Virus record (IMG/VR): IMGVR_UViG_3300036979_000267
Span: 1-61,078 of that record
From: a virus
Lineage: Duplodnaviria > Caudoviricetes
DNA length: 61,078 bases
Reading direction: 5' to 3' (one strand)
Part shown: positions 25,613 to 28,070 of the stretch, piece by piece
How positions within the stretch are numbered: position 1 is the first letter of the stretch
How the letters are laid out: every line of letters begins with the position of its first letter
Notes under the pieces: generated by a model
What the model saw: the letters and a program-made list of their open reading frames with translations, nothing else
What the model was told of the DNA's origin: nothing
Databases searched by the model: none
Program-made: the position numbers and the translations under genes

Positions 25613-25667
25613 GGGGGACTCCAGTGTAATTACCGCGCCATTCTACTACCAGCGCAGCCACATGTCA

Positions 25668-28070
25668 CTACGTCCACGCGCCGATATTGACTCTCTCGAC
25701 TTCCCGGACGGTATTGCCCATGTACGCCCCGGACTGCTGGCCGTCCGCGTGAAGCGCTAGATACTGGAGTGCGTCACAGTTGCTCACCAGCACGCCGTTG
25801 GCATAGTACGCCCCAGCCCCCTCAACGGCTATCGCGTAGACGCAGGCGGGCTGCGCTAATGGCAGCACCTGCACACACCTTAGAGCATGTTTTTGTTTTC
25901 CGGTACTTGTTCGCTTGGAACTCTGTACCGCAAACCACGCACGTGCGCGTTTCGTCATCAACTCCGCTGGCGACTCGGGCCATGCCCTGACAACTGGGGG
26001 AGCAGAACCCCCGCTTGCGGGCTCCGGCAAAGCCGTCGTACAGCTTACCGCACTGTGTGCAGACATGCTGTTGCTTTTCCCGCCCAATCCACGTAGATTT
26101 CCCGTGCTCCCGGTGCCAAGCCAGTCCATCAGGGCTACCATGCCACTGCGCAGCGGCGAGCCGGGCCGCTGCCAGATGCTCGGGCATACCGAACGTACCG
26201 TCGGCGATGCGTTCGAGGGCATGTTGCCTGCTGTGGTCGGTGCCGAGCATGAGGGCAAGGTTTTCAAGGCGGTTGTCGCTGGTGTTTCCATTGTCGTGGT
26301 GCACGTGGTGCTTGGGGGGTATTGGCCCGTTGTGGAACTCCCACACGTACCGGTGCATGTAGACCGTGCGGCGGCCAGACTCCTCATAACCAGCTTTGTA
26401 GTACCCCCGGCCTTTGCGATAGAACCGAATGCCGTTGAAAATCTGAACCGGATGTTTTGTAGCCATGGAGCGCTCCGAGTGTGGATGCTGTCCAGTATAT
26501 CAGAATACTGGAGTGCGTCAAGCGCAACCCACCCCCGTTGTGTGAGTATGGGATGGTCGGGCGTCCCCTCAAGCACCAGCCCGTCGGACAATTCCGCGCG
26601 CACCACGGGCGCAACACGGCTGTGGACCGCTGTGACCCTCCGGGGGCCAATCGGAGTCTCCACCAAGTCCCCCACGCGCAAAAGGTCCACGTCCGTCGCG
26701 CCATCCGGGGTAGCGACGCGCGTACCAGCCACAAAGCAGATGTGAGAGGCCATGTTTTTCTCCGGCTCGTCGTCCATCTCGCCCGTTTTCTTGGCCTTGT
26801 ACCGGTACTTGCCGCGCAAACCCCCAATCAAATTTAAGCACTTGTTGTCCACAAGGAACCCCGCGCCGCCGTCCACCTGTCGGTTGAGGAACTGGTCCAC
26901 CGCCCCGATGCGGGCAATCAGGGAGTTGGTGTGGGCCGAGATAGCCGTAAACCCCTCGGCTTTCAAGATGTCGTACACCGTTTTCTCGTCGGTCTGCACC
27001 CGCGAGCGTCCAGCGGGGTCGCCGATAACGAGTATGGGCGCCCCGGGAAAGTTCTGCGCCAGTAGTGGTTTCAGTATGGTACGCACGAACCGGAGCACGC
27101 CCATGCCGTCCGAGGTGGCCTCGCCCATGACCAGCAGCCTGCCCTGCATGTCAAGCTGCCCGATGACCGCACTGGGGTTCAACCCGAAGTCCATGCCGAT
27201 GAGCACTGGCCGTACCCCGTTCAGTATGGGTCGCAGCGCGCCCTTGGCGATGTGAAAGTCGGAGTCGAACGATTTCCACACGGGCTGGCCAGACAGGCTC
27301 TTGCCGAACTTCGCGTGGATGTAAATATCTATGTATTCCTCGGATTTCCCAGTTGCGAGCGTTTCATAGTACCCTGAAGGAAGCAGGTGGAGCCAGTCTG
27401 CTTCCGGGCTCGTCCCGCTAGGTTGAATTGTCACGTGTGTGTTCGATGGGGGGTTCGTCAGCAGGCCCTCGAAGTACGTGTCCATATCGGGCGGATTCGA
27501 GGCGCCCCATAGCCGGGCATTGGGGGTTCCGTCGTCCATGACACAGCCCATGCGCGGGTTACCCTTGTCGTCCGTCCCCCATTCCGGTTTGTGGGGCACC
27601 ATCATGCCATCGGGGTATCGACCCAATCGGGCCTGCAGGGCCTCGAAGATGTCCTTGTTGAGTTCGCGGAACTCGTCAATGATGGCAAAGCTCGCTTGGA
27701 GCGACAGCAGCCGCCGTACGTCTTGGGCGTCGTCAAGGCCGCGGAACAGCACATCGCACCGAATGTCACCAACAGACAGCTCAAAGCGCATCTCGGACTT
27801 GTAGTAGGTACCCGCCTCACCGTCCGGGAACCATTTTAGGAAGTCGGGAATGCTCGTGTCACGAAGTTGTTCACGTGTGTTGCGTACGAAAATGCACCGC
27901 GAGCGGCGAAAGCCATCCTTGGCCCGGGCCATGTGCCCAGCGTGGTAAAGCAGCTTCACGATCGCGGAAGTTGTCTTTGAGCTGCCTACTGGTCCACAGA
28001 TGAACGAGATGAACTTTTCCGAGGTAAAGAACGCCTCGGTGCTCGGAACTGGGGTGAAGATCAGGCTCAT
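25668..28070 (-). CDS. terL: Terminase large subunit containing an intein
   Basis: Walker A GPVGSSKT, Walker B IIDEF, nuclease GMDFG and GDPAG; splicing restores the motif SHI|CDALQY. Confidence 0.92.
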   Translation of the reverse strand: MSLIFTPVPSTEAFFTSEKFISFICGPVGSSKTTSAIVKLLYHAGHMARAKDGFRRSRCIFVRNTREQLRDTSIPDFLKWFPDGEAGTYYKSEMRFELSVGDIRCDVLFRGLDDAQDVRRLLSLQASFAIIDEFRELNKDIFEALQARLGRYPDGMMVPHKPEWGTDDKGNPRMGCVMDDGTPNARLWGASNPPDMDTYFEGLLTNPPSNTHVTIQPSGTSPEADWLHLLPSGYYETLATGKSEEYIDIYIHAKFGKSLSGQPVWKSFDSDFHIAKGALRPILNGVRPVLIGMDFGLNPSAVIGQLDMQGRLLVMGEATSDGMGVLRFVRTILKPLLAQNFPGAPILVIGDPAGRSRVQTDEKTVYDILKAEGFTAISAHTNSLIARIGAVDQFLNRQVDGGAGFLVDNKCLNLIGGLRGKYRYKAKKTGEMDDEPEKNMASHICFVAGTRVATPDGATDVDLLRVGDLVETPIGPRRVTAVHSRVAPVVRAELSDGLVLEGTPDHPILTQRGWVALDALQYSDILDSIHTRSAPWLQNIRFRFSTAFGSIAKAGGTTKLVMRSLAAARSTCTGTCGSSTTGQYPPSTTCTTTMETPATTALKTLPSCSAPTTAGNMPSNASPTVRSVCPSIWQRPGSPLRSGMVALMDWLGTGSTGNLRGLGGKSNSMSAHSAVSCTTALPEPASGGSAPPVVRAWPESPAELMTKRARAWFAVQSSKRTSTGKQKHALRCVQVLPLAQPACVYAIAVEGAGAYYANGVLVSNCDALQYLALHADGQQSGAYMGNTVREVERVNIGAWT
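25779..26738 (-). mobile_element. Intein (320 aa) in the terminase nuclease domain
   Basis: Cys1 CFVAGTRVATPDG, block B TPDHPI, block F/G VYAIAVEGAGAYYANGVLVSN, then Cys+1. Confidence 0.9.
25822..26466 (-). CDS. HNH endonuclease with C-terminal Cys (zinc-finger-like) modules, overprinted inside the terL intein
   Basis: YMHRYVWE..NGPIP..HHVHHDNGNTSDNRLENL; CTQC...FCSPSC and CVVC...TCSKVC; GGAG 6 nt upstream of its ATG; different frame from terL. Confidence 0.88.
   Translation of the reverse strand: MATKHPVQIFNGIRFYRKGRGYYKAGYEESGRRTVYMHRYVWEFHNGPIPPKHHVHHDNGNTSDNRLENLALMLGTDHSRQHALERIADGTFGMPEHLAAARLAAAQWHGSPDGLAWHREHGKSTWIGREKQQHVCTQCGKLYDGFAGARKRGFCSPSCQGMARVASGVDDETRTCVVCGTEFQANKYRKTKTCSKVCAGAAISAARLRLRDSR

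What the first reader, a model, noticed from the sequence alone, without database searches (positions are those of the whole stretch)
25779..26738. Terminase intein whose homing endonuclease is a separate gene overprinted in another reading frame
Seen: terL reads uninterrupted through a 320-aa intein (CFVAG...TPDH...VLVSN/C). Where an endonuclease would sit, the intein frame gives about 210 aa of Ser/Thr/Pro-rich sequence with no recognisable domain. The same DNA in the -1 frame (25822-26466) is an intact 214-aa HNH endonuclease with two Cys modules, its own ATG and a GGAG RBS. Both frames stay stop-free for 645 nt. Established: intein endonucleases are normally in-frame domains released with the spliced intein. 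Inference: this is a dual-coding mobile element. The nuclease is translated independently, decoupling its dose and timing from terminase, while the intein frame only has to stay open as a disordered linker. Standard gene callers would hide the nuclease. I cannot confirm novelty without a literature/database search.
Basis: partly seen in the sequence, partly recalled or inferred. Interest (0 to 1): 0.92.

Follow-up and report, generated by a model that had tools for sequence, protein, structure and literature searches.

The report
Terminase intein with overprinted HNH gene
A phage DNA-packaging gene carries a self-splicing protein insert (intein), and the DNA-cutting enzyme thought to spread that insert is a separate gene written in a second reading frame of the same DNA; the layout is real and common in phages, but the general kind was first described in 2025.

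Summary
terL (25668-28070, minus strand) reads through a 320-aa intein (25779-26738). A 214-aa HNH_3 endonuclease ORF (25822-26466) lies in the -1 frame.

The layout is not chance or a sequencing error:
- Independent contigs show no indels.
- 48 other phage loci, with G+C from 26% to 67%, have the same nesting, and 47 of them use the same relative frame.
- Substitutions switch from intein-frame to HNH-frame periodicity exactly over the overlap.
- Free-standing homologues carry stops in that frame.

The intein frame folds as a 126-residue mini-intein plus a 194-residue stretch predicted to be disordered.

The HNH gene has its own GGAG, ATG and a sigma-70-like promoter. Promoter-like sites are enriched at this position across the family.

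70 of 78 related terL alleles lack the intein, including the closest one (96% identical). This fits a mobile element.

The kind is already in print: 2025-26 preprints describe out-of-frame endonucleases in inteins. Their terL example uses Endonuclease_7 at a different site, so this is a new variant.

Translation, splicing and homing are inferred, not shown. This scan has found the same layout before on other DNA.

The parts
25668..28070 (-). terL (large terminase) precursor ORF, 800 aa, read straight through the intein
   Evidence: ORF. N-extein hits phrog_2 'terminase large subunit' at E 8.4e-19. It has 80 relatives in viral contigs at 56-96% identity.
26739..28070 (-). N-extein, 444 aa, ending ...EKNMASHI
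   Evidence: Intein-free alleles continue directly with A/S-DALQY.
25779..26738 (-). Intein, 320 aa, with Cys1, T59-x-x-H62, terminal Asn320 and +1 Cys
   Evidence: C1, H62 and N320 are invariant in 11 of 11 sequences, and in 39 of 39 in alignment A4. The predicted fold matches mini-inteins: 6riz_A, Z 20.1, rmsd 1.5, 123 aligned.
26475..26738 (-). N-terminal splicing half of the intein (residues 1-88)
   Evidence: pLDDT block means of 89-95. Substitutions peak at intein codon position 3.
25893..26474 (-). Intein-frame linker (residues 89-282): the HNH gene read one base out of step, predicted disordered
   Evidence: pLDDT below 50 for residues 89-282. Mean pairwise identity is 0.28, against 0.52 for the HNH frame over the same DNA. 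It is 37% Ser/Thr/Pro.
25779..25892 (-). C-terminal splicing part of the intein (residues 283-320)
   Evidence: pLDDT block means of 72-94. V300, Y301 and N320 are invariant.
25822..26466 (-). Nested HNH_3 endonuclease gene, 214 aa plus TGA, in the -1 frame of terL
   Evidence: Pfam HNH_3 at E 1.8e-15. phrog_15471 at E 8e-35. Model pLDDT 86.7. Best fold match is I-HmuI 1u3e_M: Z 7.4, 113 aligned, rmsd 8.7. Substitutions peak at HNH codon position 3.
25822..25892 (-). Overlap in which both products are predicted to be structured: HNH C-terminal helix and intein C-terminal strands
   Evidence: Here conservation is higher in the intein frame: 0.36 for intein residues 283-306 against 0.21 for HNH residues 199-214.
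26473..26476 (-). Shine-Dalgarno-like GGAG, six bases before the HNH ATG
   Evidence: An SD-like motif by the script's pattern lies in the 15 bases before the assigned start in 27 of 43 viral loci that have a start. By eye it is present in most of the 17 loci.
26494..26521 (-). Sigma-70-like promoter match (TTGACG, 16 bases, TG-extended TATACT). Its -10 ends 27 bases before the HNH ATG, inside the codons of the intein motif LDALQYSDIL
   Evidence: 10 of 12 matches; 3 sites in 2.8 kb against 0.9 expected. The same position is enriched in the family: 23 of 48 loci, against 3.3 expected from background density and 8.5 from peptide-preserving resampling. Function is inferred.
25671..25778 (-). C-extein, 36 aa, starting CDALQY
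   Evidence: It is 96.4% identical in DNA to the intein-free allele L103.

Best explanation
This is a composite mobile element inside the essential large-terminase gene. It consists of a class-1 mini-intein of about 126 structured residues and a complete HNH_3 (I-HmuI-like) homing-endonuclease gene. The nuclease gene is nested in the loop where canonical inteins carry an in-frame nuclease, but it sits in the -1 frame.

Proposed mechanism:
1. Ribosomes translating terL read the nuclease gene one base out of step. This yields about 194 residues of unselected, disordered linker.
2. The two intein halves fold together and splice the whole 320-residue insert out, restoring terL.
3. The nuclease is made separately from its own Shine-Dalgarno site and ATG. 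It probably also has its own promoter, embedded in the codons of the intein's N-terminal half.
4. In mixed infections the nuclease would cut intein-free terL alleles near the SHI/(A,S)DALQY site. Repair would then copy in the intein plus the nuclease gene.

Shown here:
- Both ORFs, their domains and predicted folds.
- Frame-specific selection.
- Stop avoidance in the intein frame across the family.
- Conserved start signals.
- Presence/absence polymorphism of the intein.

Inferred: translation of the HNH, promoter use, splicing, cleavage specificity and homing.

The recurrent frame relation (host frame = HNH frame +1) is probably a filter. That is the alternative frame with the fewest stops: shuffles expect 0.3-5.3 stops there, while the other sense frame carries 3-36 observed stops per locus.
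For: Domains and folds:
- HNH_3 at E 1.8e-15; Hint only at the ends of the intein frame.
- HNH model pLDDT 86.7. Its top fold match is I-HmuI at Z 7.4, the only chain with Z >= 5.
- Intein model: residues 1-88 and 283-320 are confident and residues 89-282 are below pLDDT 50. It matches mini-inteins at Z 20.1, with 30 chains at Z >= 8.

Frame-specific selection:
- Codon-position counts are 10/5/29, then 20/68/24, then 0/0/7 along the intein.
- Overlap identity is 0.87 (HNH frame) against 0.62 (intein frame). There are no indels in 960 nt across 5 sequences.

Family survey:
- 4 of 4 published phages examined have the HNH in frame +2 of an open annotated terL: TJE1, Highwayman, phiCDHM19 and LS06-2018-MD07.
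- Among viral contigs, 12 of 16 and 30 of 48 full-length matches are embedded. None is in-frame.
- 44 of 44 embedded viral loci show an intein C-terminal junction 1-95 nt after the HNH stop.
- Of 39 host ORFs, Pfam names Intein_splicing in 28, Terminase_6N in 20 and Terminase_3 in 7.

Stop avoidance:
- Shuffles give P(open) of about 1e-4 to 7e-3 for the A+T-rich published phages Highwayman and phiCDHM19.
- Non-embedded homologues carry 165 stops in 4456 codons in that frame.

Start signals:
- Start codon: ATG in 14 of 17 and GTG in 3 of 17.
- The HNH frame is closed 1-15 codons upstream in 16 of 17. A slippery heptamer occurs in 1 of 17, and it lies downstream of the start.
- Promoter-like site.

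Mobility:
- 70 of 78 complete terL relatives lack the intein, including the closest (96% aa). 7 carry intein plus HNH in the -1 frame, and 1 carries a mini-intein.
- The window's C-extein is 96.4% identical to the intein-free allele but 79.3% identical to the nearest intein-bearing one.

No assembly error.
Against: - For this window alone, openness of the intein frame is weak evidence (P 0.077-0.086). Classing relatives as 'embedded' uses that openness, so zero stops among them is partly true by definition.
- Nothing shows that the 214-aa protein is made, that the intein splices, or that the nuclease cuts the empty site.
- The window's clade has unusual C-terminal intein residues. Its block reads VYAIAVEGAGAYY and its penultimate residue is Ser. 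Most relatives read VYDLTVE.AH.FY with a penultimate His. Splicing could therefore be slow or dependent on context.
- The promoter-like site is present in only 23 of 48 loci. The conserved peptide alone explains part of the enrichment (8.5 expected). The close relatives L009-L012 are not independent.
- The fold match to I-HmuI is moderate (Z 7.4, rmsd 8.7). Foldseek found nothing at E <= 0.001.
- An HNH next to a terminase could instead be a packaging cofactor.
Confidence: 0.82

Rival explanations
1. Assembly artefact. The HNH is really an in-frame intein domain, and two compensating indel errors put it out of frame.
For: The window is a metagenome-derived virus record. In-frame nucleases are the usual intein layout (as stated in the 2025 preprint, section 8).
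Against: Contigs from three other studies cover the region without gaps. 48 other loci, including 4 isolated and sequenced phages, have the same nesting, 47 of them in the same frame. The HNH frame is closed by a stop 11 codons before its ATG and ends in TGA before the intein's C-terminal block.
Confidence: 0.01
2. The nested HNH ORF is an unexpressed or decaying relic of an old invasion. Only the intein matters today.
For: There is no expression evidence. One relative (L178) has a mini-intein at the same site without any HNH. The preprint predicts decay once homing stops (section 15).
Against: Substitutions fall on HNH third positions, and HNH-frame identity is 0.87 against 0.62 for the intein frame. 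Catalytic-type His/Asn and eight Cys columns are invariant in 14 of 14. The start codon and SD-like motif are kept. 7 of 8 intein-bearing alleles in this terL family keep a full-length HNH at E 7e-76 to 5e-102.
Confidence: 0.05
3. The HNH is a domesticated packaging cofactor that helps terminase cut DNA, like HK97 gp74-type HNH proteins (recalled: Kala et al. 2014). It is not a homing enzyme. The nesting merely keeps it linked to terL.
For: Free-standing homologues sit immediately after terL in 6 of 24 non-embedded loci. The abstract of PMC3592412 notes that HNH genes often lie next to terminase genes (listing).
Against: 70 of 78 related terL alleles have neither intein nor nested HNH, so terL does not need it. 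The Pfam family is HNH_3, and the best fold match is the intron homing enzyme I-HmuI. The gene lies at the classic nuclease position inside a mobile intein.
Confidence: 0.08
4. The HNH is expressed as a fusion by programmed -1 ribosomal frameshifting from the terL frame (N-extein, N-intein half, then HNH), not from its own start.
For: The HNH frame is the -1 frame of terL. Phage structural genes are known to use -1 frameshifts (recalled).
Against: A stop closes the HNH frame 1-15 codons upstream of the start in 16 of 17 loci. No X_XXY_YYZ heptamer lies in that interval in any of the 17; the single hit lies 27 nt downstream of the start. A start codon with an SD-like motif is conserved instead.
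Confidence: 0.03

Closest known systems
[quoted passage not shown] I read the abstract, sections 8 and 15, and found passages.
   Same: The nuclease ORF lies on the same strand, in the third frame, between the splicing blocks. The intein frame stays open and has no recognisable fold. terL is among the hosts. The authors explain it by invasion of an intein by a free-standing nuclease gene. I confirmed one of their named phages: Gordonia phage Affeca terL has a frame +2 ORF that hits Endonuclease_7 at E 1.7e-19.
   Different: The nuclease family differs. Here it is HNH_3 in 14 of 14, and Endonuclease_7 is not listed for any of the 14 at E <= 0.01. The profile of this family finds nothing in the Affeca ORFs at E <= 10. 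The terL insertion site also differs: the C-terminal ...SHI|(A/S)DALQY motif here, against ...VLVM|...|TRWHEDD in Affeca. The family here spans phages of Clostridium, Acinetobacter, Tetrasphaera, a Rhodobacteraceae host and many uncultured contigs. The words 'start codon' and 'ribosom' do not occur in the preprint's main text.
ShiLan domain: hidden out-of-frame HNH in a mycobacteriophage DNA methylase (Arsenault et al. 2025, PMC11855218). I read the abstract, the Discussion and found passages.
   Same: An HNH with zinc fingers lies in the third frame of an open host frame and has a disjunct distribution. In passing I saw HNH_3 ORFs nested in open methylase-like ORFs in four viral contigs (L080, L083, L088, L090).
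   Different: ShiLan has no intein, so the out-of-frame peptide stays in the host protein. No RBS was found there, and leaderless GTG initiation was proposed. Here a Hint fold removes the insert, and an SD-like motif precedes the start in most loci.
Fractured genes: split inteins with a free-standing endonuclease gene between the halves (Dassa et al. 2009, PMC2677866). I saw only the search listing and the start of the abstract; the rest is as cited in the 2025 preprint.
   Same: The nuclease is a separate gene between the N- and C-terminal intein parts. 10 of 17 non-embedded relatives examined show this layout with the same HNH family, and 9 of those 10 still have the C-terminal intein block in the HNH+1 frame.
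   Different: In the window the host ORF is continuous, so the intein is contiguous and can splice in cis. The nuclease family also differs: VSR-like in Dassa et al., as quoted in the preprint.
Antisense or out-of-frame LAGLIDADG in the cyanobacterial DnaX intein (Gorbalenya 1998 as cited; Phillips et al. 2026, bioRxiv 10.64898/2026.09.14.751524, found passages only).
   Same: The intein's nuclease is not part of the intein polypeptide. Purifying selection on the nuclease is reported, and a secondary invasion of a mini-intein is proposed.
   Different: The strand or frame, the nuclease family and the host gene all differ, and the host is cellular rather than a phage.
I-HmuI, the HNH homing endonuclease of a Bacillus phage group I intron (PDB 1u3e).
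   Same: It is the best structural match: Z 7.4, 113 residues aligned over model residues 8-126. It is also a weak sequence match, E 0.025 over profile positions 14-78. The nuclease is a free-standing ORF inside a self-splicing element.
   Different: Its carrier is an RNA intron, where no second reading frame has to stay open. The protein here adds two C-terminal four-Cys modules.

Membership tests
Class 1 intein (Hint fold) | N-terminal Cys/Ser nucleophile as first residue | tested here: met
   Cys1 is invariant in 11 of 11 and 39 of 39.
Class 1 intein (Hint fold) | Block B T-x-x-H motif | tested here: met
   T59-P-D-H62 in the window. H62 is invariant in 11 of 11 and 39 of 39. The block name is recalled.
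Class 1 intein (Hint fold) | C-terminal Asn followed by Cys/Ser/Thr at +1 | tested here: met
   ...VLVSN|C. N320 is invariant. The junction was found in 44 of 44 embedded viral loci.
Class 1 intein (Hint fold) | Hint fold formed by the N- and C-terminal parts | tested here: met
   The predicted model matches gp41-1 mini-intein 6riz_A (Z 20.1, rmsd 1.5, 123 aligned) and 29 further chains at Z >= 8. This is a prediction, not a solved structure.
Class 1 intein (Hint fold) | Penultimate His and block-F Asp/His (common but not universal; recalled) | tested here: not met
   The window has a penultimate Ser and VYAIAVEGAGAYY, where most relatives have VYDLTVE.AH.FY and HN. This does not bar membership, but it is a caveat for splicing rate.
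Class 1 intein (Hint fold) | Protein splicing activity | not testable with these tools
   It is inferred from the essential host gene and from purifying selection on the splicing parts.
HNH_3 / I-HmuI-like homing endonuclease | Pfam HNH_3 above the gathering score | tested here: met
   56.7 bits against 24.8. 14 of 14 family members hit it.
HNH_3 / I-HmuI-like homing endonuclease | Conserved His/Asn columns of the His-Me finger | tested here: met
   H56, H57, N65, N69, H78 and H82 are invariant in 14 of 14. Which of them is catalytic is not determined here.
HNH_3 / I-HmuI-like homing endonuclease | Fold like a solved HNH homing enzyme | tested here: inconclusive
   I-HmuI is the top match at Z 7.4 but with rmsd 8.7. 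Foldseek gives E 0.29 and probability 0.91.
HNH_3 / I-HmuI-like homing endonuclease | Sporadic presence among close alleles of the host gene | tested here: met
   70 of 78 terL relatives are intein-free, including the 96%-identical L103.
HNH_3 / I-HmuI-like homing endonuclease | Site-specific cleavage of the empty allele | not testable with these tools
[quoted passage not shown] 2025) | Nuclease ORF on the same strand, in the third frame, between the splicing blocks, with the intein frame open | tested here: met
[quoted passage not shown] 2025) | Nuclease of the Endonuclease VII type | tested here: not met
   HNH_3 hits 14 of 14, and Endonuclease_7 is not listed for any at E <= 0.01. The Affeca terL ORF is Endonuclease_7 and is not found by this family's profile.
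Fractured gene / split intein with free-standing nuclease (Dassa et al. 2009) | Host gene broken into two ORFs around the nuclease gene | tested here: not met
   The window's terL is one 800-aa ORF. The feature is met in 10 of 17 non-embedded relatives examined.
Terminase-associated HNH packaging cofactor (HK97 gp74 type; recalled) | Required for terminase cutting | not testable with these tools
   Indirect evidence against: most terL relatives lack it. Only HNH_3 among nuclease families was hit at E <= 0.1.

The most novel reading that the evidence does not exclude
The nested nuclease is a complete transcription unit hidden inside a protein-coding domain. Its promoter is written in the codons of the conserved intein motif (L/A)DALQYxD(I/V)L, followed by an SD site and an ATG. 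In this window the -35 box and spacer lie within an exact 16-base copy of the homing site's downstream half. The nuclease could therefore repress its own promoter, as I-TevI does in the T4 td intron (recalled). In addition, for this HNH family the out-of-frame state is the rule: 0 in-frame cases among 64 full-length viral matches. It also grades directly into fractured terL genes with the same frame relation. This gives a living series for how split inteins arise.
Probability: 0.3. Interest if true: 0.7.

Novelty: new variant of a known kind. Interest (0 to 1): 0.5.

Why it matters
It shows that an intein and its homing nuclease can be two genes sharing one stretch of DNA. Selection acts on the protein in one frame and only on stop avoidance in the other. 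For this HNH family that is the usual state across unrelated phages, not a curiosity of actinophages.

Practical consequences:
- Gene callers and deposited annotations miss the nuclease. 4 of 4 published records list only terL at this place.
- The 'terL' products on record contain about 200 residues of out-of-frame translation.

Evolutionary consequences:
- The same nuclease occurs in three states: free-standing behind an intein-free terL, nested in a contiguous intein, and between the halves of a broken intein.
- This series makes two models directly testable: the 'nuclease invades mini-intein' model and the 'contiguous to split intein' model.

A promoter encoded within a splicing domain, if functional, would be a neat case of three-layer coding.

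Tried and rejected
- Foldseek of the HNH model against the PDB gave no match at E <= 0.001. The profile search of PDB sequences gave only weak rows; I-HmuI scored E 0.025.
- The RNA fold around the HNH start is unremarkable: z -1.10, with 27 of 200 shuffles folding as well. I therefore dropped the idea of a start-site-masking hairpin.
- No RNA holder is listed for this stretch. Runs X16 and X20 are labelled RNA-Seq but are flagged as probably DNA. X16 holds only a diverged relative. None of this bears on expression.
- I first looked for the preprint's out-of-frame example in the Affeca MuF-like minor capsid intein. That intein instead has a 291-aa antisense ORF. The Endonuclease_7 case is in Affeca terL.
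- tblastn with the TJE1 HNH showed no SEA-PHAGES phage in the 60 rows listed of 455 records.
- The exact 16-base repeat is not conserved at DNA level. The longest shared run is 9 bases in L009 and L010, and 8 or fewer in the other 14 loci. I treat it as a lead, not a feature of the family.
- Literature. Searches for 'intein' + 'free-standing' + 'overlapping' + 'different reading frame' and for 'intein' + 'TJE1' each found 0 papers. The statement that this HNH_3 terL version is not in print rests only. Supplements were closed.
- I fitted no formal dN/dS model and built no intein-versus-extein tree.
- I did not use the search for homologous proteins, the search of protein representatives, complex prediction, the protein-atlas search or the genome contigs and metagenome-contig scans.

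Full report
**What is there.**
- The window is a complete 61,078-bp virus record with terminal repeats.
- On the minus strand, terL (25668-28070) is one 800-aa ORF.
- It consists of a 444-aa N-extein, a 320-aa insert at 25779-26738 that begins CFVAG and ends VLVSN, and a 36-aa C-extein beginning CDALQY. The N-extein hits PHROG terminase large subunit at E 8.4e-19.
- In the terL frame, Pfam sees only Hint-type matches at the two ends of the insert.
- In the -1 frame, 25822-26466 is a 214-aa ORF that hits HNH_3 at E 1.8e-15 and phrog_15471 over its whole length at E 8e-35.
- GGAG lies six bases before its ATG, and the ORF ends in TGA 43 nt before the intein's last codon.

**Is it more than chance or error?**
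- Taken alone, the window is not compelling. The DNA is about 60% G+C. An antisense frame is also open for 276 aa.
- Synonymous shuffles that keep the HNH protein and its codons leave the intein frame open 8-9% of the time.
- The decisive evidence is comparative. tblastn of the HNH against deposited phages placed it under an annotated terL in four unrelated isolates: Tetrasphaera TJE1, Acinetobacter Highwayman, Clostridium phiCDHM19 and Rhodobacteraceae phage LS06-2018-MD07.
- In 4 of 4, the match is in frame +2 of a terL ORF that stays open and shows intein ends. None of these records annotates the nuclease.
- For the two A+T-rich isolates, the probability of an open frame by chance is about 1e-4 to 7e-3.
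- In IMG/VR contigs, 12 of 16 relatives found with the window protein are nested in this way. So are 30 of 48 further full-length matches found with a family alignment. Of these, 41 have host frame = HNH+1 and one (L060) has HNH+2. None is in frame.
- All 44 nested viral loci, including two shorter matches, have an intein C-terminal junction 1-95 nt after the HNH stop.
- Of 39 host ORFs scanned, 28 hit Intein_splicing, 20 hit Terminase_6N and 7 hit Terminase_3.
- In 24 homologues that are not nested, the corresponding frame carries 165 stops in 4456 codons, and only one has none.
- Calling a locus 'nested' requires the open frame, so the zero count among nested loci is circular. The contrast with free-standing copies and with the shuffles is not.
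- Contigs from three other studies cover 25650-26900 with substitutions but no gaps. This rules out compensating indel errors.

**Which frame is selected where.**
- The inteins of the window and four close relatives (L009-L012; L009/L010 and L011/L012 are near-identical pairs) align over 960 nt without indels.
- For window against L009, differences by intein codon position are as follows:
  - 10/5/29 in the N-terminal splicing part;
  - 20/68/24 in the overlap, where the peak falls on HNH codon position 3;
  - 0/0/7 after the HNH stop.
- Over the overlap the HNH frame is 87% identical and the intein frame 62%.
- Across ten more divergent loci, mean pairwise identity is as follows:
  - 0.52 for HNH residues 1-198;
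  - 0.28 for the linker read from the same DNA;
  - 0.44 for intein residues 1-88;
  - 0.67 for intein residues 307-320.
- In the last 16 HNH codons the balance reverses: 0.21 for the HNH tail against 0.36 for the intein strands. Real double constraint is therefore confined to about 70 nt (25822-25892).

**Predicted structures.**
- With an 11-sequence alignment, the intein model is confident for residues 1-88 and 283-320. It is below pLDDT 50 for residues 89-282.
- It superposes on mini-inteins: gp41-1 6riz_A at Z 20.1, rmsd 1.5 and 123 aligned, with 30 chains at Z >= 8.
- Cys1, His62 and Asn320 are invariant in 39 of 39 host ORFs.
- The HNH model has mean pLDDT 86.7.
- Its only match at Z >= 5 is the intron homing enzyme I-HmuI: Z 7.4, 113 aligned, rmsd 8.7. 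Foldseek found nothing at E <= 0.001.
- Two C-terminal four-Cys modules are invariant.
- A caveat for splicing: the window's clade has a penultimate Ser and lacks the Asp and His that most relatives carry in the last conserved block.

**How the nuclease is probably expressed.**
- In 17 loci inspected closely, a start codon sits directly before the conserved N-terminal strand. It is ATG in 14 and GTG in 3.
- The HNH frame is closed by a stop 1-15 codons upstream in 16 of 17.
- No -1 slippery heptamer lies in that interval in any of the 17. The single hit is 27 nt downstream of the start.
- An SD-like motif by the script's pattern lies in the 15 bases before the assigned start in 27 of 43 viral loci that have a start.
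- A consensus scan also found a sigma-70-like promoter at 26521-26494: TTGACG, 16 bases, TG-extended TATACT, 10 of 12 matches. Its -10 ends 27 nt before the ATG.
- Across 48 nested loci, 23 have such a site ending 5-80 nt before the start. Background density predicts 3.3. The 75-nt bin just upstream holds 22 sites, against 0-6 in the fifteen other bins.
- phiCDHM19 has a perfect 12 of 12 match ending 21 nt before its GTG.
- When the intein peptide is held fixed and synonymous codons are resampled, 8.5 loci are expected against 23 of 47 observed. Part of the signal is therefore carried by the conserved peptide (L/A)DALQYxD(I/V)L itself.
- Promoter use is an inference. The scan covers only sigma-70-type promoters, and L009-L012 are not independent of the window.

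**Mobility.**
- Of 80 viral-contig relatives of the N-extein, 78 are complete at the site:
  - 70 have no insert, and the site reads SHI followed by A or S, then DALQY;
  - 7 have a full-size intein with the HNH profile in the -1 frame (E 7e-76 to 5e-102);
  - 1 (L178) has a mini-intein of about 168 aa without HNH.
- The closest allele, L103, is 96% identical in protein and is intein-free.
- The window's C-extein DNA is 96.4% identical to L103 but only 79.3% identical to the nearest intein-bearing allele.
- This disjunct, mosaic pattern is what a homing element gives. Homing itself is not shown.

**Evolutionary series.** The same nuclease family occurs in three states.
- Free-standing, directly behind an intein-free terL. 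This holds for 6 of 24 non-nested loci, among them Sphaerotilus phage SN1.
- Nested out of frame in a contiguous intein. This is the state of the window and 48 other loci.
- Between an ORF that ends after the N-terminal splicing part and a C-terminal intein block. This 'fractured' state holds for 10 of 17 non-nested loci examined, 9 of them with the block still in the HNH+1 frame.
- The preferred frame is the one with the fewest expected stops. Shuffle means are 0.3-5.3 per locus there, while the other sense frame carries 3-36 observed stops. A simple survival filter therefore explains the constant frame relation.

**What is known.**
- The 2025 preprint of Gosselin, Arsenault and Gogarten reports actinophage inteins whose nuclease is antisense (LAGLIDADG, VSR-like) or in 'reading frame 3' ('endonuclease VII-like'). 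It attributes them to invasion by free-standing nuclease genes.
- I checked one of their named phages. Affeca terL has a frame +2 ORF that hits Endonuclease_7 at E 1.7e-19. It lies at a different terL site, and the profile of the present family does not detect it.
- The same group described an out-of-frame HNH in a methylase without an intein (PMC11855218). They also described an out-of-frame nuclease in the cyanobacterial DnaX intein.
- The kind is therefore known. The present case is a variant with another nuclease family, another insertion site and a much wider host range. It adds evidence on start signals that the preprint's main text does not address: 'start codon' and 'ribosom' occur 0 times.
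- I found no paper on this version. Supplements were closed.
- Earlier notes of this scan report the same layout in other genomes. I set scores on my own tests.

**Verdict.** I classify it as a new variant of a known kind, with moderate interest.

Noticed in passing
window 26505-26520 and 25761-25776 (minus strand): An exact 16-base copy of the C-extein flank (codons of DALQY) lies inside the intein, overlapping the -35 box and spacer of the promoter-like site upstream of the HNH start. The peptide motif recurs in many relatives, but the DNA identity does not: 9 bases in L009 and L010, and 8 or fewer in the other 14 loci. A possible operator for autorepression; untested.
   Followed up: partly
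L026, L027, L028, L031, L032, L033, L034, L035, L047, L053: These are 'fractured' terL genes. The same HNH family lies between an ORF ending after the N-terminal intein part and a C-terminal intein block plus C-extein. In 9 of 10 the block is in the HNH+1 frame, and the read-through frame holds stops. I did not check whether the C-terminal piece has its own start.
   Followed up: partly
L080, L083, L088, L090 (also L081, L097): Shorter HNH_3 ORFs are nested in the +1-open frame of ORFs of 483-720 aa. In four of these the downstream sequence looks like a DNA methyltransferase motif, and no intein junction is present. This resembles the published ShiLan element. Host proteins were not run through Pfam.
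   Followed up: no
L178:2501-4400: A terL relative (59% identity) has a mini-intein of about 168 aa at the same site, with no hit to the HNH profile. It is either a degraded or a never-invaded state.
   Followed up: partly
L060:1168-1716: This is the single nested locus where the host frame is HNH+2 instead of HNH+1. G+C is 67%, and the HNH stop lies 95 nt before the intein end.
   Followed up: no
L024:2956-3561: This nested HNH has a duplicated N-terminal module and lacks the two C-terminal Cys modules.
   Followed up: no
alignment A4 (host ORFs): 2 of 39 host ORFs also hit LAGLIDADG_3 and Hom_end_hint. This suggests a second, canonical intein in the same terL. Two host ORFs are about 1200 aa (L044, L063). 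I did not check whether these are the two.
   Followed up: no
L102:2546-3421 (Gordonia phage Affeca, MuF-like minor capsid gene): The intein in this gene carries a 291-aa open frame on the antisense strand. This is the antisense architecture of the 2025 preprint. It was not run through Pfam.
   Followed up: partly
window 25668 and 25633: A contig of run X3 matches the window up to the terL stop and then continues with unlike sequence. A contig of X4 has a 1-base deletion at 25633, in the spacer after terL. This points to a mosaic boundary at the end of terL.
   Followed up: no
L020-L023, L030, L005: Free-standing copies of the HNH sit within about 50-100 nt after an intein-free terL. The C-terminus of that terL holds the motif (…DA.RY…) that is the intein insertion site in other phages. 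This is the layout expected for a nuclease that targets the neighbouring gene.
   Followed up: partly
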